IMG/VR virus record: IMGVR_UViG_3300003375_000001
Coordinates: 174,518-238,517 of that record
Length of the DNA: 64,000 nucleotides
Source: a virus
Lineage: Duplodnaviria > Caudoviricetes
Direction: 5' to 3' (one strand)
This document shows positions 28,781-54,377 of this stretch, one piece after another. The first letter of the stretch is position 1. Every line of letters begins with the position of its first letter. The position numbers and the translations under genes were made by a program. The notes below the pieces were generated by a model. That model did no database searches. It worked only from the letters and a program-made list of their open reading frames with translations, and was not told the origin of the DNA.

Positions 28781-29074
28781 TCAGATATCGCCGAAGTCGT
28801 CGTCTTTCACCTTGATGGACTTCTTGACAGGCTTGCCACCTTTGACGACCTTAGCAGCCTTCTTTGCGGGAGCCTTCTTAGCCGGTGCACCCTTAGCAGC
28901 CTTCTTAGCTGGTGCAGTCTTGACGACCTTAGCAGCCTTCTTTGCGGGAGCCTTCTTAGCCGGTGCACCAGAAGCTTCAGCTTCTTGCGCGGCTTGAAGG
29001 GCTTCCAGTGTCGTGTTCAAGGCGGCGGTTTGCTTCTGGGCCTTGTTAGCCAGTGCAATTGTTCGTTTGCTCAT
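28781..29074 (-). CDS. Histone H1-like Lys/Ala-rich protein (97 aa)
   Basis: PAKKAPAKKAAK repeats; start MSKRT at 29074 with an AAGGA SD. Confidence 0.85.
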   Translation of the reverse strand: MSKRTIALANKAQKQTAALNTTLEALQAAQEAEASGAPAKKAPAKKAAKVVKTAPAKKAAKGAPAKKAPAKKAAKVVKGGKPVKKSIKVKDDDFGDI

Positions 29075-29103
29075 GATGTTTCCTTTTCCGTGTAGGGAAG
29101 TAT

Positions 29104-29173
29104 GCGAGGGTCTCTGTTTGAAAATCCTCAAATTCAGCTAGCGAGACCCTCACGAGAAACGCTGATTTTGAGG
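29104..29173 (-). promoter_or_regulatory. H-type pseudoknot in the 5' UTR of the histone-like gene
   Basis: S1 29161-29173 pairs with 29126-29138 (12/13 bp); S2 29143-29153 pairs with 29104-29114 (11 bp); stems interleaved. Confidence 0.65.
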
Positions 29174-29270: not shown

Positions 29271-30809
29271 TCAGTCCAGCCACCATTGAGTTTGAGACTT
29301 TGTTGGACGATTGTTTTGTTGATTGAACTTCGTCAGACAGAATTCAAAGTAGGCTTTTACCGACTGGGCTGGCTTCTTTCGCTTGGCAATAAGAGCTTTG
29401 AGCTTGGCTTTAGTTTCGGCTAACTTGGTTTTCAAGTTGTCCTGATCAAGCTTAGCCAATTGCCTTACCTTCAGTTCCAGAATTTGATTAGCCTGTTCAA
29501 CCGTTATCTTCAAACCTTTGGCAATCAGCTCTGCGGTGTTTGGCTTACGCAAGGCATTCATGATAGTGTCCAAATGATCACACGCATGAATGAGAAGTTC
29601 CATATAGGCAATGTGCTTTTCTACTTCACCTATTTGGTAGTCAAGCGAATCGGCTTCAAGTTTTACTCGAAACTTGAGCCAGGTCATGGCAAGCTCAGGA
29701 ACAGACAGAGCCTTGAAAGTTGTGTCCGCTTCGTTGCGACCATTGCGCACTCGAAGTTTTCTATCCGACACATAGACGTTGTAGCTGACCTTACTTCGCG
29801 TGAGAGCCTTGACCTTTTCGGCTACCGCGTTAAAGTCATTCATATTCACTGTCTTGCGAACTTGAATAACGTAGCTAAGGCCCTTACCTGAAGACACACC
29901 TTGCACCATGCTCTTCCACCATCTGGACTCTTCCAGTTGTCGCTTGGTAGGAGCTTTCTTTGACTCGGGGAGCTTTCCTTGCACCTTTGCTATCACAGAG
30001 CCTATGTTTACTTCAGGGGCAAACTTGTTCCACGAGATAGTCTTTTTGCTGGTGTCTATGTCTAGCGGAGACTCAAACTCGATGGTCGCATTAGGCGTGT
30101 TCATCAAGTTTAGGATGGACTCTCGATTCGATTTTGACTTTACTACCTGAGCACCCCAGGAAGTATTGAAACGTAGGCCCTTAGCAAAGTCTACAGGCGT
30201 AACCTCCTCTCTGTCTAGCATCCTACACATCAACGGCAGAAGAGACTCAGGAGTAAAGCCAGGTAAACTTGATTTGGTACCGTAACCGATACCCGTTTGA
30301 GAGTTGAATAGAATGTTTGGCAGCAGGCAGGGCAGATATACAGGCTCTTCATCCTTGTCATCATAGTTTGGCATTATTGGCGACACCGCCAAATAGTTTG
30401 GCTGCACAAACTGCCGACCGTATATAGACAAGCGAGCAGCAGGATACCTCATGGCCGCTGCGGGGTCTACTAGGTTACCCCAGTTCCCTTGCCCTTCAAG
30501 AATAGGTACGTCGCACGTAGCGGCGACAACCATAGCTCCATATATGGAAGAATCCCCGTGGGGGTGGTACTTACCAATCACGTCACCAACGATACGGGCT
30601 GCTTTGGTATACTCTCTAGCTATCTTTGAAGAGGCCCACGTTATGCGTCTGGTGACAGGCTTTAAGCCGTCCTGCAATGCTGGGGTGGCACGTTCCTCGT
30701 TTACTTCTGTGCCATAAGCTTTCAACGATACTTTCGCGTAGTCTCCAAGTTCTACGCGGCCTACTTCAGCCCGCTTCGTTGATTTAGCGGCTGGTGGTTT
30801 CTTTGTCAT
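29271..30809 (-). CDS. gyrA: Type IIA topoisomerase subunit A (GyrA/ParC family), no C-terminal pinwheel
   Basis: DGLKPVTRR, GKYHPHGDSS, GQGNWG, catalytic AAMRY; only 512 aa, so probably not a supercoiling gyrase. Confidence 0.93.
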   Translation of the reverse strand: MTKKPPAAKSTKRAEVGRVELGDYAKVSLKAYGTEVNEERATPALQDGLKPVTRRITWASSKIAREYTKAARIVGDVIGKYHPHGDSSIYGAMVVAATCDVPILEGQGNWGNLVDPAAAMRYPAARLSIYGRQFVQPNYLAVSPIMPNYDDKDEEPVYLPCLLPNILFNSQTGIGYGTKSSLPGFTPESLLPLMCRMLDREEVTPVDFAKGLRFNTSWGAQVVKSKSNRESILNLMNTPNATIEFESPLDIDTSKKTISWNKFAPEVNIGSVIAKVQGKLPESKKAPTKRQLEESRWWKSMVQGVSSGKGLSYVIQVRKTVNMNDFNAVAEKVKALTRSKVSYNVYVSDRKLRVRNGRNEADTTFKALSVPELAMTWLKFRVKLEADSLDYQIGEVEKHIAYMELLIHACDHLDTIMNALRKPNTAELIAKGLKITVEQANQILELKVRQLAKLDQDNLKTKLAETKAKLKALIAKRKKPAQSVKAYFEFCLTKFNQQNNRPTKSQTQWWLD

Positions 30810-30857
30810 CTGTTGACTTTCTGTATTTAAGGGTGGAGGTTGTGTGCTTGGAATAGC

Positions 30858-31057
30858 AGCCTAGGAGTACAGCAGCCCGATCGACTTGAACTCGGTTGTA
30901 AACTCTTTATCTAGGGTTTGGACAAGCTTTGATTTTTGAACGTGTACGAGTTTGAACGTTGCAGACTTAAGGTTTGAACGTTTACCTTTGAGCGTTAAAC
31001 TTTCAACTTTTACGCTAAATAGTTTAGCATGCACCTGACGCATGTGCCTACAAGGCT
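30858..31057 (-). ncRNA. Candidate ncRNA with a 7-nt periodic array (GTTCAAA-like)
   Basis: About 12 heptamer-like units at 30928-31015, flanked by hairpins; 5' AGCCTTGTAGG can pair with 3' CCTAGGCT. Confidence 0.5.
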
Positions 31058-31130
31058 AACTGTGACAGGAATCGAACCTGCGACTACCGACCTTTCACGT
31101 CGATGCTCTAACCGACTGAGCTACACTGTT
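31057..31130 (-). tRNA. trnF: tRNA-Phe(GAA), atypical, CCA not encoded
   Basis: Cloverleaf with GCTC/GAGC D stem and GGTTCGATTCC T loop; anticodon loop GT-GAA-AG; A4:A69 mismatch; followed by GCC. Confidence 0.8.
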
Positions 31131-31234
31131 ATATACACCGATATTTAAACCCTCGGTATAACGGGCCCTCGTGTTTCTACTGTTCGCTAACCAAACACAC
31201 AACATCGAAACTAACTACATCAGGTTAACAGTAT

Positions 31235-31912
31235 TTAATCTGGGATGTGAACCGTTGTCTTCACGTTTATCTCGGACAAAGCAAAGTCCACGTTAGTCGT
31301 GAAGGCTGCAAGGGCTTCTTCCCGCTTCTTGACCTCTTCCACGATGTTAAGAGGGTCGATCAACACAGGCATGCATCGTGTCTCAATGGACTTGCGAGTG
31401 CTTTCCAGCAGTTCCGCAGAGACCTCTTTATCACCAGCCTTGATCTGAGATTGTTGAGTCTCGATCTTGCTATTAACATCCCTCATCTCCTTTTCGATGA
31501 AGCCGGAGATACCATTGAACTGCCGCTTCATCATGTCAATGACGGTCTGTTGAACTGGCACTGACGCCTTGCGCTCAATGGCGTCTGCGATTGTCATTTC
31601 TTCAGTGCCAATGGTCACAAACGTCGTAGCATTAGCCTTCACTAAAGCAGCCTTAAGCTTCTGCTTGCGTTTGATCAGGTCGTTCAAGGACTGATATTCT
31701 GTCACCATCGCAGCAGCCACCTCGCTGGGCTTTGGAGAAGCCACTGCGCTGATTGTGTTACCTGTTTGCGTGAGGAGCATAGCGTTTGCGTCAGTACCCC
31801 GCTGCACGGCAACATAGGATGTTGTCTGAGCCAGGCTAACGATACGGGCTGTGAGGGTCTTCAACTCGGATAGAACGCGAGTGAGGGACATTTCTGTGGT
31901 CTTTGTAGTCAT
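31235..31912 (-). CDS. Coiled-coil hypothetical protein with internal pseudo-repeat
   Basis: MSLTRVL/MTIADAI and ANATTFVTI/INVKTTVHI paired motifs; LIDPL motif. Confidence 0.85.
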   Translation of the reverse strand: MTTKTTEMSLTRVLSELKTLTARIVSLAQTTSYVAVQRGTDANAMLLTQTGNTISAVASPKPSEVAAAMVTEYQSLNDLIKRKQKLKAALVKANATTFVTIGTEEMTIADAIERKASVPVQQTVIDMMKRQFNGISGFIEKEMRDVNSKIETQQSQIKAGDKEVSAELLESTRKSIETRCMPVLIDPLNIVEEVKKREEALAAFTTNVDFALSEINVKTTVHIPD

Positions 31913-31971: not shown

Positions 31972-33822
31972 TCATTTATGAACAAACTTGTTGCAAGACT
32001 TGATTAGGTCAAGGGTGAGAGGAATTTCTCTGAAGGCTGCCCATCGTTTAGACAGACGAAGCAACTGCCGAATTCCTCGGCCACTTCGTTTAGGAAATGC
32101 TGAGGCCACTTCAGTCCAGTCTAGTTTTTCTTTGACCTTTTGAAGCTCAGCCTGTGTCTTCCAGATAGCCGCACTTTGTTCCAGATTAGGCAACTTGAAT
32201 TCTATGACCACGTTAGACCTGCTTAGGATGGCATCGTCAATGTCTTGAGTACCATCGTTAGTGGTCTGGTTTGTAGTAAGGACGAGAACGCCCTTAAAGT
32301 ATTCCAGTCTGCGCAGGAACACACCTACGAGAGCGTTTTGGGATATGTCGATACCACGCGTGTGAATGTAGGCATTCGCCTCGTCAATCATAAGGACGCA
32401 GTTCCAACGTTCGGTTCTGCGAAGAATCTGCTGTAGGTTTTCTTCCAGAGAGGAAGAGTCCATGCCTAGTTGGTCAGCCGGTACCTTGTATAGAGGCTTC
32501 TTTGAAGCTTCCGCCAATACCTCAGCTAGCAGAGTCTTACCAAGACCAGGTGCGCCGATACAGGTAATGATTACTGCTTGCGACTTACCTTCTATGATGT
32601 CGTCCACGTCTTCGTCGGTAACCGAGGCTACCAGCATGCGCGTCATGTCTTTCACATCGGGATCGAGAATAAGCTTATCGTCAAGGCCTTCCTTGTACTT
32701 ATAAGGCTTAAGGTTCTTGACGTGTACTGTGTGAAAGGCGTACTTTTCCAGGTGGAATATCTTCAAGAGAAAGTGCATGGGGACTTGCACGTAAGGTGTT
32801 TCGGAGAGGTTTTCTATCTCTTGATGAAACTCCGATCGTGCAGCGATAATTGAGTCTTCCAGCTTGGCAGACTTCAAGATACCTCGTAGCTCTTCCCAAG
32901 GAACCTTGCCTTCGGCTTCTTGGCTAGAAGCCGCTTTGCTCCTTCGAAGGCCTCTAGGTCGGTCATCCTCATCCTCATCCTCAGTATCGTTGTCCCTATC
33001 AAGAACGAAGGCAGGAATAGTGTCCAATATACACTTGGAAGGGTTCCCTTCTGTCAAAAGGTTGTAGCCGCTTACGTCGTTGCCTCTAACCTCGAGCTGT
33101 TCACCAAATCGGTAGAATAGGCGCTCCATCAGAGAGAACTGTTTATCGTATAACTCCGTCATGCCCTCCGATTCTATGAACCAGCCATGGTGACTAAGCA
33201 AGTCTTTGATAGTAACCGATATTGTTGATTCCTCTAGCATTACGGCGTCTACAGTAACTGCGGCTGAGTCTTTGCGGGGTCTGACAGTTACCTCTTTGTA
33301 TAGAACACCTTTAGCGTCGTACAGACTAATCAGGTCACTAACATCAAAGGTGATGGTCAGTCCTACAGGTGAGGACGACCATATATGAGAATGGTGAAGG
33401 CACATTCGAATCCAAGGAGAACCCGAATAGTCTTTGCCCAATTCGATTTTAGTTACCAGGTAAGCAAGGACTGCGTTGAACTTTCCCTGACGGAACAGCC
33501 ATTGACGTTTTGTATTACTGACATAGGACCTAAGGGCAGGCCCGATGTCTGACATACGAGACAAAGGTTCATCTGTGTCGGTAGATGTAAGGAGACCGGA
33601 GTAGGTGAACCTGATGGCCTGAGCGTACGGAGTCTCTTTGTCTTTAACCAGTTCGGCTAAAACGGTTACAGACCCCGGATTGAGTTCATCCAAATCAACT
33701 TCCAAGTTGCGCAAAGGTCCGTTCGAGAACATACCAGCGGCTTTGGCTAGAGTCTTTATCTGTTCGGATCTAGTCGCAGCCTCTATAGCTATGGACTTAG
33801 GAATTTTGATTATTGAGTTCAT
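31972..33822 (-). CDS. AAA+ ATPase with large N-terminal region
   Basis: Walker A GAPGLGKT, Walker B LMIDE, sensor LTTN, IDDAILSR. Confidence 0.9.
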   Translation of the reverse strand: MNSIIKIPKSIAIEAATRSEQIKTLAKAAGMFSNGPLRNLEVDLDELNPGSVTVLAELVKDKETPYAQAIRFTYSGLLTSTDTDEPLSRMSDIGPALRSYVSNTKRQWLFRQGKFNAVLAYLVTKIELGKDYSGSPWIRMCLHHSHIWSSSPVGLTITFDVSDLISLYDAKGVLYKEVTVRPRKDSAAVTVDAVMLEESTISVTIKDLLSHHGWFIESEGMTELYDKQFSLMERLFYRFGEQLEVRGNDVSGYNLLTEGNPSKCILDTIPAFVLDRDNDTEDEDEDDRPRGLRRSKAASSQEAEGKVPWEELRGILKSAKLEDSIIAARSEFHQEIENLSETPYVQVPMHFLLKIFHLEKYAFHTVHVKNLKPYKYKEGLDDKLILDPDVKDMTRMLVASVTDEDVDDIIEGKSQAVIITCIGAPGLGKTLLAEVLAEASKKPLYKVPADQLGMDSSSLEENLQQILRRTERWNCVLMIDEANAYIHTRGIDISQNALVGVFLRRLEYFKGVLVLTTNQTTNDGTQDIDDAILSRSNVVIEFKLPNLEQSAAIWKTQAELQKVKEKLDWTEVASAFPKRSGRGIRQLLRLSKRWAAFREIPLTLDLIKSCNKFVHK

Positions 33823-38559: not shown

Positions 38560-38652
38560 TGGTGCGGGAGGTGGGACTCGAACCCAACAAGGTCTCTTTC
38601 GAGAACCGGCGGTGTTTAAGACCGCTGCCTATACCAATTCGGCTACTCCCGC
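38560..38652 (-). tRNA. trnL: tRNA-Leu(TAA)
   Basis: GCGGGAG/CTCCCGC acceptor, long variable arm, loop CT-TAA-AC, CCA encoded; one extra T in the T stem. Confidence 0.92.
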
Positions 38653-38732
38653 GCACAGGTATTGTGTTATTTAACTAATACCTTCTTCCAGTTGTTGACA
38701 AAGGTAAAATACTATTCGACTGAACTAAATTA

Positions 38733-38807
38733 TGGTGTCTCCTACTGGAGTCGAACCAGTGTTGACGGCTTAGAAGGCCGTAGTATTATCCACTATACGA
38801 AGGAGAC
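38733..38807 (-). tRNA. trnR: tRNA-Arg(TCT)
   Basis: GTCTCCT/AGGAGAC acceptor, ACGGC-CTTCTAA-GCCGT anticodon arm, CCA encoded. Confidence 0.93.
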
Positions 38808-38834
38808 CACTCTATCCAGTTGAGCTATGGGCAG
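38808..38834 (-). pseudogene. 5' tRNA fragment (acceptor strand plus D arm) fused to tRNA-Arg(TCT)
   Basis: CTGCCCA-TA-GCTC-AACTGGATA-GAGT-G directly abuts tRNA-Arg; no matching 3' half downstream. Confidence 0.7.
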
Positions 38835-38841
38835 GTCGTGA

Positions 38842-39003
38842 CTAGTCTTCCGACTTGATCAGCTTGTCAATCAAGCGTTTCTCCTTCTGCTTCATTGCCT
38901 TAAAGACTTTCTTGCGAGGCTTCCCAGGAGCACAGCAATCGCAATGCCAACCTCCTGAGCCAAGGGCAAAGAAACGAAGGTAAAACTTTTTCGACTTGAT
39001 CAT
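38842..39003 (-). CDS. Small basic protein (53 aa) with CDCC motif
   Basis: MIKSKKFYLRFFALGSGGWHCDCCAPGKPRKK...; GGAG SD; below the ORF-track cutoff. Confidence 0.7.
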   Translation of the reverse strand: MIKSKKFYLRFFALGSGGWHCDCCAPGKPRKKVFKAMKQKEKRLIDKLIKSED

Positions 39004-39064
39004 CGTGTGCTCCAGTAGTTGTAATTACCTCGCATGATGAACTCCTTCATAGATAAAAACACAA

Positions 39065-39299
39065 TCGGAGGAACTACAAGTCTGAGACCCCGAAGTCCTA
39101 CCGGCTGCATTCTTGCGTTCAGATCGTGGCCTTTGACCTGACCGCTGTCGTACAACTTGGCTACTAAGCGAAGACAAAACGGTGGCAGCGTCCGTCAGGG
39201 CCTAGTAACCCGTATACCGTTCAAGAGTTGCCAGACTCTCACTGTTAGAGTTTCTTCCCTCGAATACTAGGTGGACGGTATCAGTCCCTAGCTTCAAGC
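39065..39299 (-). ncRNA. Candidate structured rod-like ncRNA downstream of the hammerhead
   Basis: ORF-free; nested long-range helices found by hand, e.g. 39186-39199 with 39137-39147 (11 bp) and 39232-39237 with 39079-39084. Confidence 0.6.
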
Positions 39300-39353
39300 G
39301 TGCTTACGCCCTTGCGAGCGTTTCGCTAGATTTTCACTAGCTCATCAGAGCAC
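39300..39353 (-). ncRNA. Type I hammerhead ribozyme
   Basis: GUGCU-CUGAUGA-GCUAG(UGAAAAU)CUAGC-GAAA-CGCUC(GCAA)GGGCG-UA-AGCAC: full core and three stems; GUA cleavage between 39305 and 39304. Confidence 0.93.
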
Positions 39354-39710
39354 TTAAATAAAGAAGTCTGTTTCCGATACCAGCGTGCCGTCAGCCTTGT
39401 GGTAGAACGTTCCAGAGACACCTTCTTCCATGTCGTTATACAACATAGACCAAAGCCAATCAGGTAAGTCGGGAATAAGTCTTCGAGCCTTACCTTGCAG
39501 ATAGTCGCGGACGTCAAGGTAATCAAACTTCTTTTCTCTAACAGCCTGAGACAACCTCGGATCATCAAGCTGGTTGTAGATGTACTCGTCCGAATCCAAC
39601 TTTGAAAGTTCTTGGATGTTGAGAAAGAAGTAGTTCAACTGAACATCCCAGCCTGCGCGAAGAACAACAGGCTGACCTTCGCATACTGTCATGAGGGAAT
39701 GGTTTGACAT
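39354..39710 (-). CDS. Hypothetical protein
   Basis: 118 aa; AAGGA SD; its stop codon abuts the hammerhead. Confidence 0.75.
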   Translation of the reverse strand: MSNHSLMTVCEGQPVVLRAGWDVQLNYFFLNIQELSKLDSDEYIYNQLDDPRLSQAVREKKFDYLDVRDYLQGKARRLIPDLPDWLWSMLYNDMEEGVSGTFYHKADGTLVSETDFFI

Positions 39711-39737
39711 GAGTAGTTCCTTAACTGTGGTGGAAGG

Positions 39738-39812
39738 TGGTGGGCCGTGCTGGTTTCGAACCAGCGACCAAAGACTTATGAGGTCTCTGCTCTCCCACTG
39801 AGCTAACGGCCC
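39738..39812 (-). tRNA. trnI: tRNA with CAT anticodon, probably Ile2 (lysidine type)
   Basis: G1:C72, C4:G69 and C5:G68 (TilS determinants), ileX-like TGGTCGCTGGTTCG, CCA encoded. Confidence 0.85.
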
Positions 39813-53583: not shown

Positions 53584-53669
53584 TGAAATTCTCCTGGTGA
53601 GATAACAAGGGAGGACTTGAAGTGGCTTACGTCGCAAACCGCTTACCACTTCAGTTTAACGGGAGTAGA

Positions 53670-54377
53670 TTATTCTTCCCAGTCGAAGTTGTCGTCGTCA
53701 GAGGCCTTCTTGCCTTTGGCAGGAGTTTTCTTGCCAGGCTTCTTGGCAGGAGGCTCATCTTCGTCTTCAGACTCGTCTTCTTCGTCCTCTTCTTCCTCTT
53801 CAGCTTCGTCTTCTTCGTCAGGATCCGCGCGCTTTGAGGTCTTCTTCGCAGGTGCCTTCTTCGCAGGAACTTTCTTCTTCTTAGGAGCTTCCTCTTCTTC
53901 CTCTTCAGCTTCGTCTTCTTCGTCTTCCTCTTCAGCTTCGTCTTCTTCCTCTTCTTCGTCAGGATCGGCACGCTTAGAAGTTTTCTTCGCCGGTGCCTTC
54001 TTAGCAGGCACCTTTTTCTTCTTAGGTGCTTCCTCTTCAGCTTCGTCCTCGTCTTCAGCCTCGACCTCATTGCCTTCGTCGTCAGCGATGCTGATAGTAA
54101 TGCCGCGATTTGGAGCGAACAGGATCTTGTTGTTGTCGTCAGTAACGATCAAGTACAGATCCTTTTCTTCACTCCACTTGACTGACTTGGCAGTCACGGT
54201 CCAGCTGTAGACGCCGGCGATCATCACCAGGCCCTTTGAGTCAGAGTAGGGGATTTGCTGACGGTCAACGATTTCCTCGCCGACTACGCGCATTGTTTCA
54301 AGTTCGGGATGCTTCTGGGGTGGACCCGAAACAGGACGCAGGGCAGAGAGAGTCGTGAAGGTAACCTTGTAAGACAT
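53670..54377 (-). CDS. Charge-block protein: folded N-domain plus alternating acidic and KKKKVPAKKAPAKK blocks
   Basis: ~47-aa unit duplicated at protein and DNA level; GGAG SD. Confidence 0.85.
   Translation of the reverse strand: MSYKVTFTTLSALRPVSGPPQKHPELETMRVVGEEIVDRQQIPYSDSKGLVMIAGVYSWTVTAKSVKWSEEKDLYLIVTDDNNKILFAPNRGITISIADDEGNEVEAEDEDEAEEEAPKKKKVPAKKAPAKKTSKRADPDEEEEEDEAEEEDEEDEAEEEEEEAPKKKKVPAKKAPAKKTSKRADPDEEDEAEEEEEDEEDESEDEDEPPAKKPGKKTPAKGKKASDDDNFDWEE

What the first reader, a model, noticed from the sequence alone, without database searches (positions are those of the whole stretch)
30858..31912. Coiled-coil gene, CCA-less tRNA and heptamer-repeat RNA: candidate protein-RNA module
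Seen: directly after the tRNA-Phe discriminator comes a hairpin (AUGCUAAA/UUUAGCGU) and then a 7-nt periodic array GCGTAAAA GTTGAAA GTTTAAC GCTCAAA GGTAAAC GTTCAAA CCTTAAG TCTGCAAC GTTCAAA CTCGTACAC GTTCAAA AATCAAA (30928-31015). A hairpin CCGA/UCGG and an end-closing helix AGCCU..AGG/CCUAGGCU follow. A period of 7 is not codon-compatible. The upstream 225-aa protein has a two-fold internal repeat. I recall this protein family being followed by similar AAA-periodic non-coding tracts in other genomes, but that is unverified. Inference: a single-stranded repeat RNA onto which the protein polymerises (one protomer per heptamer), with tRNA 3' processing generating its 5' end.
Basis: partly seen in the sequence, partly recalled or inferred. 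Interest (0 to 1): 0.75.

Follow-up and report, generated by a model that had tools for sequence, protein, structure and literature searches.

The report
Phage heptamer-repeat RNA with partner protein
Directly after a widespread phage gene of unknown function (the T5.085 family, mislabelled "tail fiber") lies a conserved, intricately folded ~370-base non-coding RNA that carries a run of about a dozen 7-base repeats, with a tRNA gene nested in this copy. I found this gene-plus-RNA pair, from phage T5 to Bacillus chromosomes, in no RNA database or paper that I searched.

Summary
The 7-nt array at 30927-31015 (- strand) is the most 7-periodic stretch of the 238.5-kb phage genome.

The same kind of array (consensus G-N-U-Y-A-A-A, typically about 8-12 units) follows the homologous ~208-aa gene (phrog_1491, T5.085 family):
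- in 66 of 70 sequences searched, the few without a hit being mostly truncated;
- in phage T5, PVP-SE1 and six other named phages of Gram-negative and Gram-positive hosts;
- in Paenibacillus and Psychrobacillus chromosomes.

The array is one part of a 250-480-nt structured RNA:
- a long closing helix P1 (here 31206-31186 with 30857-30836);
- a 5' pseudoknot;
- a variable insertion site, which here holds the tRNA-Phe;
- the array;
- a three-helix 3' domain ending in GGCUG;
- a long-range pseudoknot.

All helices covary. G.U pairs outnumber A.C pairs 49 to 4, so the structure forms in sense-strand RNA. Rfam 15 has no match.

The tRNA is nested and optional, so it is not the RNA's 5' boundary. 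Protein binding to the array is plausible but untested: pairing held in both directions tested, and a homodimer is predicted, but the protein is near-neutral. Function is unknown. This is a probable new RNA-protein module.

The parts
31235..31912 (-). Gene for a 225-aa protein of the T5.085 / phrog_1491 family. It is labelled 'tail fiber protein' in databases, without support.
   Evidence: phrog_1491 E 2.3e-48. No Pfam, NCBIfam or PADLOC family. 739 GenBank phage records hold a homolog. 3657 clusters at 50% identity. AF2 model pLDDT 90.9.
30836..31206 (-). Whole structured non-coding RNA element (~371 nt), from the P1 5' strand to the P1 3' strand.
   Evidence: Homologous elements of 250-480 nt follow the gene in 66 of 70 sequences searched. 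No Rfam 15 match.
31186..31206 (-). P1 closing helix, 5' strand, followed by the conserved GCGAA junction (31187-31182).
   Evidence: Inverted repeat I1. The single-sequence MFE fold recovers it. In about 58 of 63 loci the best complement of the 12 nt after GGCUG is immediately followed by CGAA.
30836..30857 (-). P1 closing helix, 3' strand, directly after the invariant GGCUG (30861-30857).
   Evidence: Matched loci give 11.3 of 12 pairs, mismatched loci 5.8 of 12. The 5' strands are only 32% identical between loci. G.U 49 against A.C 4.
31134..31167 (-). 5' H-type pseudoknot: S1 31167-31163 with 31152-31148; S2 31160-31153 with 31141-31134; GGUUUAAAU loop motif.
   Evidence: The same S1/S2 order with covarying stems is seen in L002, L008, PVP-SE1, the T5-like phage and subfamily I. 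Real regions reach 11 or more base pairs in 75% of cases, shuffled ones in 32%. The window coordinates were assigned by eye and string search.
31054..31131 (-). tRNA-Phe(GAA) without an encoded CCA, nested in the RNA's variable insertion site.
   Evidence: ARAGORN and Rfam, 58.9 bits. Nested tRNAs occur in 6 of 36 elements, with varying identities: Glu, Ser, Leu, Gln, Phe.
31014..31047 (-). Two short hairpins between the tRNA and the array (31047-31031 and 31028-31014).
   Evidence: Read from the sequence. A hairpin precedes the array in relatives as well.
30927..31015 (-). Array of about 12 heptamers (family consensus G-N-U-Y-A-A-A).
   Evidence: top-ranked in the genome. Consensus and spacing mode of 7 across 36 elements. 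The number and order of units are conserved in subfamily I.
30857..30916 (-). 3' domain: Pb 30915-30911 with 30864-30860; Pc 30905-30902 with 30868-30865; Pd 30895-30892 with 30880-30877; then GGCUG.
   Evidence: Covariance model R1 hits window 30857-30923, E 1.2e-3. 94.4% of cells are paired against 70% in shuffles, and 11 of 12 pairs show compensatory changes.
31177..31183 (-). Candidate long-range pseudoknot strand ACAGUAG, pairing with CUGCUGU at 30875-30869.
   Evidence: The partner covaries in close relatives: L002 ACAGUAG/CUACUGU and L008 ACAAGUG/CACUUGU, read. In other subfamilies the equivalent 5' segment pairs with the Pd loop. For this window it is an inference.
30861..31043 (-). 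60-codon ORF over the array; not a gene.
   Evidence: No family hit. Only 8 of 36 elements have any ORF of 40 or more codons, and these lie at non-homologous positions.

Best explanation
The region is a ~371-nt structured non-coding RNA (31206-30836, - strand). It probably begins as the 3' extension of the mRNA of the T5.085-family gene.

The RNA folds into a compact core:
- a 21-bp closing helix P1;
- a 5' H-type pseudoknot;
- a three-helix 3' domain ending in GGCUG;
- a long-range pseudoknot that ties the 5' and 3' domains together.

Two things loop out of this core. One is a variable site, which in this phage has taken up a tRNA-Phe gene. The other is an ~85-nt run of about 12 GNUYAAA heptamers with no conserved pairing partner.

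Shown here: the RNA family, its architecture, its strand, and its pairing with the protein gene in phages and in some Bacillota chromosomes.

Inferred: the RNA and the co-encoded protein, which is predicted to be a homodimer, form a ribonucleoprotein. In this reading the evenly spaced heptamers are a multivalent platform that binds several copies of the protein, as periodic triplets bind the TRAP ring. Where a tRNA is nested, RNase P and RNase Z would cut the RNA into two pieces that P1 and the pseudoknot hold together.

The biological role is unknown. The constant association with tRNA-rich phage regions suggests a link to tRNA or RNA metabolism, or to host takeover.

My odds: structured RNA family about 0.95; functional gene-RNA module about 0.85; the protein binds this RNA about 0.5; the array is the binding site about 0.4. 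The confidence given for this explanation as a whole (0.5) is that of the ribonucleoprotein reading.
For: Periodicity: the array is unique in the genome.

From the protein side: R1 found a 3' domain in 66 of 70 sequences searched, always on the gene's strand and once per sequence. In 64 of them it lies downstream of the gene; in L011 it lies directly upstream. The window's own copy is among them. In most loci the strongest 7-periodic stretch also lies 140-750 nt downstream.

From the RNA side: 31 of 31 loci found with an RNA-only pattern have the gene directly upstream.

Named phages: T5, PVP-SE1, STG2, BCP8-2, AM2, phiCD211, Special G, pVp-1 and KIL3 all have an unannotated 360-640-nt gap with the array and P1.

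Cellular genomes: in the Paenibacillus and Psychrobacillus chromosomes the gene, the RNA and an intrinsic terminator form one isolated unit among ordinary cellular genes.

Covariation:
- P1: 11.3 of 12 pairs in matched loci, 5.8 of 12 in mismatched ones.
- Pb: all four Watson-Crick pair types at two adjacent positions.
- 3' domain: 94.4% of cells paired, against 70% in shuffles and 33-58% with slid partners.
- Long-range pseudoknot: 65% of matched pairs reach the mark, against 11% of mismatched pairs.
- 5' pseudoknot.

Strand: G.U 49 against A.C 4.

Array: the number and order of heptamers are conserved in subfamily I while the N positions vary.

Protein self-association: score 0.51, best of 3 controls 0.01. 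In the tool's calibration this mark was reached by 20 of 30 proteins solved as pairs of one chain and by 1 of 23 solved as single chains. These counts hold only roughly here, because my own alignment and four copies were used. The three runs agree in at least 86% of contacts, and the partner's pLDDT is at least 80. The model supports binding; it does not show it.
Against: - There is no expression or binding evidence of any kind.
- The protein family is near-neutral (median pI 6.2, net charge about -1), which is unusual for a protein that coats RNA.
- Several conserved basic residues (R83, K87) lie in the predicted dimer interface rather than on a free surface.
- The fold has no known RNA-binding relative. 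The best solved match is 3kdq, of unknown function (Z 10).
- Single-sequence folding does not predict the array to be less paired than the rest of the RNA (unpaired probability 0.41 against 0.39).
- In a few loci other genes or tRNAs lie between the gene and the RNA: 299 nt holding a 90-aa ORF in L028, about 920 nt in L017, and several tRNAs in L008.
- Many loci come from closely related phages of one sample, so the raw counts overstate independence. The covariation measures rest on 36 non-redundant elements.
Confidence: 0.5

Rival explanations
1. The RNA works without the neighbouring protein. Either it is a sponge or decoy whose repeats hold a universal host factor (a single-strand RNA-binding protein, a ribonuclease or a tRNA enzyme), or it is an RNA-only assembly like GOLLD or ROOL. 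The gene is linked only through co-transcription.
For: The RNA has an elaborate fold of its own. It sits in phage regions rich in tRNAs and other non-coding RNAs such as drum, skipping-rope, RAGATH-36 and twister-P1, as GOLLD and ROOL do (PMC5737381). The protein is near-neutral and has no known RNA-binding fold. Hosts range from Enterobacteria to Clostridia, so any host partner would have to be universal.
Against: Gene and RNA stayed paired in both directions tested, and in cellular chromosomes they form an isolated two-part unit. In L011 the order is inverted but the adjacency is kept. Co-transcription alone would not keep one particular gene next to the RNA across such diverse genomes.
Confidence: 0.25
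2. The element is a cis-acting 3' UTR. It stabilises or processes the mRNA of the upstream gene (and of nested tRNAs), or lets the protein regulate its own synthesis. It has no function in trans.
For: The RNA starts 10-50 nt after the stop codon in most loci. The window's element contains no promoter-like site. Terminators follow it in the bacterial loci.
Against: Size and complexity far exceed known 3' stabilisers: 250-480 nt, two pseudoknots and a unit number conserved within subfamily I. The RNA keeps its structure when separated from the gene by 300-900 nt or by tRNAs, and when placed upstream of the gene.
Confidence: 0.1
3. One reading: the array is a free single strand whose 5' end is made by tRNA 3' processing, and the protein polymerises on it, one protomer per heptamer.
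For: The array and the gene-RNA module are real. In this window RNase Z cleavage at the tRNA would indeed create a 5' end just upstream of the array.
Against: 30 of 36 non-redundant elements have no nested tRNA. Conserved, covarying RNA lies 5' of the tRNA. The model predicts a symmetric dimer, with no evidence for a polymer.
Confidence: 0.1
4. The heptamers act in double-stranded DNA as iterons for a DNA-binding protein (operator, centromere or origin), like the 7-bp heptads bound by the omega repressor of plasmid pSM19035 (named from my own knowledge).
For: Seven-bp direct repeats are a known iteron format. Here and in Lactococcus phage AM2 the array lies upstream of a topoisomerase or gyrase gene.
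Against: The array always has one orientation relative to the gene and lies inside helices that covary as RNA. G.U outnumbers A.C 49 to 4 on the sense strand. Downstream genes differ between genomes, and terminators follow in bacteria. There is one copy per genome. No ribbon-helix-helix family is detected in the protein.
Confidence: 0.03
5. The 60-codon ORF 30861-31043 is translated into a small protein.
For: It is open from ATG to stop.
Against: There is no Shine-Dalgarno-like sequence before it and no family hit. ORFs are absent or lie elsewhere in 28 of 36 relatives. A 7-nt period does not fit codons.
Confidence: 0.01

Closest known systems
TRAP (MtrB) bound to the Bacillus trp leader, and HutP bound to hut mRNA (from my own knowledge)
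   Same: Evenly spaced short single-stranded motifs are read by a symmetric oligomeric protein. HutP sites (UAG plus a 4-nt spacer) also have a 7-nt period.
   Different: Those are 3-11 triplets in a regulatory leader, not 8-14 heptamers held in a pseudoknotted scaffold. The proteins have different folds. Nothing here points to attenuation. Binding is untested here.
GOLLD and ROOL large ornate RNAs
   Same: Large, multi-pseudoknot RNAs of unknown function, found in phages and prophages next to tRNAs (PMC5737381; PMC12286853 listed).
   Different: Their Rfam models gave no match. This RNA is smaller (250-480 nt), carries a periodic repeat array, and has a dedicated protein gene. GOLLD and ROOL assemble as RNA-only complexes.
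Protein-sponge RNAs CsrB/RsmZ and CrcZ (from my own knowledge)
   Same: Many copies of a short motif on one RNA hold several copies of a protein.
   Different: Their motifs (GGA in hairpin loops; A-rich AANAANAA) are irregularly spaced. Their partners are global regulators encoded elsewhere.
Bacterial Y RNA (YrlA) with Rsr
   Same: A closing stem formed by the 5' and 3' ends, a tRNA-like module inside, a gene for the protein partner next to it, and occurrence in phages.
   Different: The YrlA model scores only 15.1 bits here and 36.7 bits in L031, against a gathering score of 69, and it matches only the tRNA-like insert. The protein has no TROVE domain.
Heptamer-armed cassettes around S23p / rRNA intervening-sequence four-helix-bundle genes
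   Same: Arrays of 7-nt period are tied to a small helical protein gene across many phyla.
   Different: In those cassettes two inverted arrays flank the gene and pair with each other. Here a single direct array lies inside a separate structured RNA beside the gene. No member of this family matches any Pfam family, so none matches the S23p family.
ToxI-type antitoxin RNA repeats of type III toxin-antitoxin systems (from my own knowledge)
   Same: A tandem-repeat RNA is encoded next to its protein partner.
   Different: ToxI repeats are about 36 nt, lie upstream of the gene, and each folds and is cut out. The protein here matches no PADLOC model.

Membership tests
T5.085 / phrog_1491 protein family | Full-length match to the family profile; length of about 205-225 aa | tested here: met
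   phrog_1491 E 2.3e-48 over residues 5-223. T5 T5.085 is 32.6% identical over 98% of the query. The profile search gives 3657 clusters of uniform length.
Tail fiber protein (the database label) | Fibre-like fold, or location in the virion gene module | tested here: not met
   The AF2 model consists of helical hairpins with small beta elements. The fold searches returned no fibre. The gene lies among early and DNA-metabolism genes in T5 (RNase H, exonuclease), and here between an AAA ATPase and topoisomerase II subunit A.
tRNA (the nested gene) | Cloverleaf match to the tRNA models | tested here: met
   ARAGORN tRNA-Phe(GAA) at 31054-31131; Rfam tRNA model 58.9 bits against a gathering score of 29.
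Any Rfam 15 family, including GOLLD, ROOL, YrlA and tmRNA | Covariance-model score at or above the family's gathering score over the element | tested here: not met
   Only the nested tRNA passes in the window. Nothing overlaps the element in PVP-SE1 or in 15 other loci at E <= 0.01, except a sub-threshold YrlA hit on a tRNA-like insert.
TRAP-type triplet-repeat RNA target | (G/U)AG triplets spaced by 2-3 nt, and an MtrB-family protein | tested here: not met
   The period is 7 and the consensus is GNUYAAA. No Pfam family is found in any of 32 members.
Heptad DNA iterons bound by ribbon-helix-helix proteins (omega/ParG type) | 7-bp repeats that act in duplex DNA and are bound by a ribbon-helix-helix dimer | tested here: inconclusive
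   The period matches. But the array lies inside covarying RNA helices with a strand-specific excess of G.U pairs, and no ribbon-helix-helix family is detected. DNA binding itself cannot be tested with these tools.
Type III toxin-antitoxin (ToxIN-like) or other known defence systems | Match of the protein to a known defence or toxin model; repeats of about 36 nt upstream of the gene | tested here: not met
   PADLOC gives 0 families. The repeats are 7 nt long and lie downstream of the gene.
S23p / intervening-sequence heptamer-armed cassette | Inverted heptamer arrays flanking a four-helix-bundle gene of the S23p family | tested here: not met
   There is a single direct array. P1 is not built of heptamers. 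No Pfam hit in any member.

The most novel reading that the evidence does not exclude
This is a new class of ribonucleoprotein, shared by many large phages (T5-like, rV5-like, Bastille-like, 949-like and jumbo phages) and some Bacillota. A pseudoknotted RNA scaffold presents about a dozen 7-nt repeats on which dimers of a dedicated ~208-aa helical protein assemble in a fixed number. tRNA genes can be nested in the scaffold, so that the mature particle is a two-piece RNA. Its role would lie in tRNA or RNA metabolism or in host takeover.
Probability: 0.4. Interest if true: 0.9.

Novelty: categorically new. Interest (0 to 1): 0.86.

Why it matters
Phage T5 is a classic model phage. A conserved ~350-nt RNA appears to have gone unannotated in its early region, next to a gene that hundreds of GenBank records call a "tail fiber protein".

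If the module is what it seems, it adds a new large structured RNA class, and a protein family of several thousand 50%-identity clusters, to the short list of ornate bacterial and phage RNAs of unknown function (GOLLD, ROOL, OLE, raiA).

It has three features that make it unusually easy to study:
- a strictly linked protein partner;
- a simple repeated motif that can be mutated or counted;
- culturable model systems (T5 in E. coli, PVP-SE1 in Salmonella, Bastille-like phages in Bacillus).

It also corrects a widespread misannotation. And it shows tRNA genes nested inside another RNA gene, which matters for automated annotation of phage "tRNA islands".

Tried and rejected
- Expression data: no RNA holder was listed for the window or for L047. 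Laying the four candidate runs gave only short contigs of uncertain DNA or RNA origin, which say nothing about transcription or RNA ends.
- Close relatives: megablast of the region against phage records found nothing. A single-protein scan of viral contigs found nothing. The closest homolog is 46% identical.
- Promoter-cluster idea (GTTGAAA resembling a -35 box): 0 promoter-like sites in the region. The motif is conserved as RNA.
- Is the array predicted to be unpaired? Single-sequence partition functions gave 0.41 against 0.39, which is uninformative. The statement that the array has no conserved partner rests on the subfamily alignment.
- BLASTP of the two protein halves found no alignment. 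Only a 16-column repeated motif appears by hhalign.
- Fold searches (PDB Foldseek, AFDB clusters, VIA wide, ESM Atlas) gave only uncharacterised viral or bacterial proteins and generic helical bundles.
- Literature: 'T5.085' gave 0 papers. Searches on heptanucleotide repeats, phage non-coding RNA, GOLLD/ROOL, T5 RNA-seq and phage structured-RNA surveys found no description. The survey of about 10,000 unnamed candidate structured RNAs from IMG/VR (PMC10690425) may contain a fragment of this element; its main text does not describe it, and I did not open its tables.
- Ideas considered and left as speculation, for lack of any test: that the heptamers mimic anticodon loops or T-loops, or are RNase E, Rho or primase sites.
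Full report
**Context.** The window is the last 64 kb of a complete 238,517-bp virus record with direct terminal repeats. Its only full DNA holder is a freshwater metagenome. Nearly all genes in the window lie on the minus strand. The finding covers three things: a 225-aa gene (31235-31912, -), a tRNA-Phe (31054-31131, -), and the 244 nt between that tRNA and a topoisomerase II subunit A gene (29271-30809, -; Pfam DNA_topoisoIV E 1.5e-62).

**The observation.** On the minus strand the tRNA discriminator is followed by GCC, not CCA. Two short hairpins follow, and then an 88-nt A-rich stretch. In that stretch base identity peaks at lags 7, 14, 21-22 and 28. Scored by identity at lags 7 and 14, it is the single best 88-nt window of the whole genome: 0.51, against 0.405 for the next best, with a genome mean of 0.247 and sd of 0.036. 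ACGTTCAAA occurs three times exactly and once with one mismatch within 61 nt, and only once more in the 64 kb.

**The recollection about other genomes is right.** The protein belongs to phrog_1491 (E 2.3e-48), named "tail fiber protein" there. It matches no Pfam, NCBIfam or PADLOC family. Homologs are found in 739 GenBank phage records, T5 gene T5.085 among them. A profile search of 1.84 billion representative proteins finds 3657 clusters, almost all 203-225 aa long and unfused.

In the first three relatives I read, the gene is followed by an unannotated gap of about 400 nt holding the same kind of heptamer array. These were metagenomic L002, Salmonella phage PVP-SE1 and the T5-like phage STG2. 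In most of the 60 further viral loci analysed, out of 65 fetched with the protein alignment, the most 7-periodic stretch within 1.5 kb on either side lies 140-750 nt downstream of the gene on the same strand.

Over 36 non-redundant elements the unit consensus is G-N-U-Y-A-A-A. Successive units are spaced by 7 nt in 156 cases, by 6 in 45 and by 8 in 44. Some lineages use AAU or AAC in place of AAA.

**The array is one part of a larger structured RNA.**

1. *Closing helix P1.* I searched without bias for the best complement of the 12 nt that follow a conserved GGCUG. In about 58 of 63 loci the partner lies 10-50 nt after the gene's stop codon and is immediately followed by a second conserved motif, CGAA(A). 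In matched loci 11.3 of 12 positions pair, against 5.8 of 12 when the strands of different loci are combined. The 5' strands themselves are only 32% identical between loci. In the window P1 is 31206-31186 with 30857-30836. It was also found as an inverted repeat and is recovered by single-sequence folding.
2. *The 3' domain.* It has three nested helices: AAAUCC-Pb, then Pc, then the Pd hairpin, closing with GGCUG. In Pb two adjacent pairs show all four Watson-Crick types, with 0-2 of 30 sequences broken. On a 12-sequence seed 93.7% of cells pair, and 8 of 12 pairs have compensatory changes. The covariance model built from that seed (R1) finds one hit per sequence in 66 of 70 sequences searched, always on the gene's strand. 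The window is among them (30857-30923, E 1.2e-3), as is T5. On the 46 distinct hits 94.4% of cells pair, against 70% in shuffles and 33-58% with slid partners. That alignment is fitted to the model, so it leans towards the model's structure.
3. *Long-range pseudoknot.* In most lineages a 7-mer about 14 nt after CGAA is complementary to the Pd loop, in many different versions: CAUAUGC/GUAUAUG, UAAUAAC/GUUAUUA, GUUUGCC/GGCAAAC, CUGAUCU/AGAUCAG. Among matched pairs 65% reach the mark, against 11% of mismatched pairs. In the window's own subfamily the partner seems to be the segment just 3' of Pd instead. The pairs are ACAGUAG/CUGCUGU here, ACAGUAG/CUACUGU in L002 and ACAAGUG/CACUUGU in L008, read. 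For this window that is an inference.
4. *5' H-type pseudoknot.* Its two stems covary, and an A-rich or GGUUAAAU third loop follows them.
5. *Variable site.* Between the 5' pseudoknot and the array lies a variable site. In 6 of 36 elements it holds one or two tRNA genes, of differing identity: Glu, Ser, Leu, Gln, Phe. The window's tRNA-Phe is such an insertion.
6. *Unit order.* Within subfamily I the number and order of units is conserved while the N positions vary: about 7 units, then a small hairpin in which one unit pairs with its own complement, then 4-5 more units.

**RNA, not DNA or protein.**
- G.U pairs outnumber A.C pairs 49 to 4 in P1, and 13 to 4 in the 3' domain. My helix search rewarded G.U, so the contrast is somewhat inflated, but the partners are anchored independently by CGAA.
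- The orientation relative to the gene is constant.
- ORFs over the element are absent or not homologous in 28 of 36 relatives.
- The window's element contains no sigma-70-like promoter and no terminator.
- In the bacterial loci an intrinsic terminator follows P1.
- The genome has a single copy.

**How tightly are gene and RNA linked?**
- From the protein side, R1 found the RNA in 66 of 70 sequences searched. The few without a hit are mostly truncated (L043, L070, L072); L065 has the element in a variant form that the model missed.
- From the RNA side, a pattern taken only from the RNA of subfamily I found 31 viral loci. All 31 have the gene directly upstream: 22-29 nt away in most, and 299 or 921 nt away where an ORF has been inserted.
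- In L011 the RNA lies directly upstream of the gene instead.
- Six more named phages were checked: Bacillus BCP8-2, Lactococcus AM2, C. difficile phiCD211, the Erwinia jumbo phage Special G, Vibrio pVp-1 and Pseudomonas KIL3. All have an unannotated gap of 370-640 nt with an array and a P1 candidate, and R1 hits 5 of the 6.
- In the Paenibacillus rhizovicinus and Psychrobacillus chromosomes the gene, the RNA and a terminator stand alone among ordinary cellular genes.
- The flanking genes differ from genome to genome. The gene-RNA pair is therefore the conserved unit.
- Many viral loci come from one sample and are close relatives. The independent evidence is the 36 non-redundant elements and the range of taxa.

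**The protein.** AF2 gives a confident model (pLDDT 90.9) of long helical hairpins with small beta elements at one end. The halves share a repeated N-A-x-T-x-V/I-x-I motif. No solved or predicted structure of known function matches. The best is 3kdq, of unknown function, at Z 10, and the rest are generic helical bundles. The family is near-neutral (median pI 6.2).

A four-copy fold supports self-association through a symmetric interface that includes the conserved IDPLN loop. The score is 0.51, and the best of 3 controls is 0.01. In the tool's calibration this mark was reached by 20 of 30 proteins solved as pairs of one chain and by 1 of 23 solved as single chains. These counts hold only roughly here, because my own alignment and four copies were used. 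The runs agree in at least 86% of contacts, and the partner's pLDDT is at least 80. This supports a dimer; it does not show one, and it says nothing about RNA binding. The "tail fiber" label has no support from the fold or from the gene's position.

**What it most likely is.**

*Shown:* a new family of structured RNAs of about 250-480 nt, paired with a dedicated protein gene.

*Inferred:* the two form a ribonucleoprotein. The regular, conserved run of heptamers, held out from a pseudoknotted core, looks like a multivalent single-strand platform. The nearest precedents are TRAP and HutP, where a symmetric oligomer reads periodic motifs (from my own knowledge). The dedicated, self-associating neighbour protein is the obvious candidate reader. 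Against this stand the neutral charge, the lack of any known RNA-binding fold, and the absence of data.

**Comparison with known systems.** Rfam 15 has no match for the window, PVP-SE1 or 15 further loci. The neighbourhoods do hold known phage RNAs, namely drum, skipping-rope, RAGATH-36, twister-P1 and a tmRNA-like gene, so these regions have been mined before. Neither the paper that described those motifs nor a later survey of phage structured RNAs describes this element in its main text. It resembles GOLLD and ROOL in context, Y RNA with Rsr in its layout of closing stem, tRNA-like insert and partner gene, and sponge RNAs in its repeated motifs. It fails the membership test for each. Earlier notes of this scan describe heptamer arrays as inverted arms around S23p genes, which is a different architecture.

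**Verdict.** The element is very probably a previously undescribed RNA class with a partner protein, present in classic model phages. That makes it directly testable.

Noticed in passing
window 28781-29131 (-): A 116-aa protein made largely of AKKAPAKKAAK-type Lys/Ala/Pro repeats, with a 27-nt tandem repeat at 28873-28930. Its composition resembles histone H1 or AlgP. It lies just downstream of the topoisomerase gene in a jumbo phage and has no family hit.
   Followed up: no
window 53617-54377: A strongly repetitive stretch (141-nt tandem repeat, CTT/CTC-rich on the + strand) that would encode an acidic Glu/Asp-rich repeat protein on the minus strand.
   Followed up: no
window 31972-33822 (-): A 616-aa AAA ATPase lies upstream of the module. 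It matches phrog_29662 ('ATP-dependent protease') and the PADLOC IetA models (E 3.7e-13). The order AAA ATPase, T5.085-family gene, RNA, topoisomerase II subunit A is conserved in the closest relative, L002.
   Followed up: partly
L073 5081-5636 (phage T5, NC_005859 40848-41566): The T5 record annotates 'rnaX', a 719-nt 'stable RNA with unknown functions', about 2 kb downstream of the T5.085 module. The module's own RNA is not annotated.
   Followed up: no
L031 1025-1432: A phage-borne tmRNA-like gene (45.1 bits, just under the gathering score of 47) lies immediately upstream of the T5.085-family gene. The RNA element of this locus contains a tRNA-like insert that scores 36.7 bits with the Y-RNA-like YrlA model.
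   Followed up: no
L036 437-564; L025 255-333; L044 395-459 and 2655-2766: The module sits in 'RNA islands'. RAGATH-36, skipping-rope, twister-P1 (below its gathering score) and drum RNAs, along with many tRNAs, lie within 1-2 kb of it in different phages.
   Followed up: no
L106 4001-4915 and L107 4001-4890: In the Paenibacillus rhizovicinus and Psychrobacillus chromosomes, the gene, the RNA and a terminator form an isolated unit with no phage genes nearby. Many Psychrobacillus species hold the gene. This suggests a cellular role or an old domestication.
   Followed up: partly
L028 2138-2410: In one phage lineage a 90-aa, very acidic ORF is inserted between the gene and the RNA.
   Followed up: partly
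L106 about 681-750: An unrelated, near-perfect heptamer array (ACGTTAT repeated about 7 times) lies in a Paenibacillus intergenic region 3.9 kb upstream of the module.
   Followed up: no
protein P0189: One family member is 474 aa long with three matched stretches. It is apparently a tandem duplication of the otherwise unfused ~208-aa protein.
   Followed up: no
window 38560-39812 (-): A second tRNA cluster (Leu-UAA, Arg-UCU, Met-CAU) lies 7-8 kb away on the same strand.
   Followed up: no
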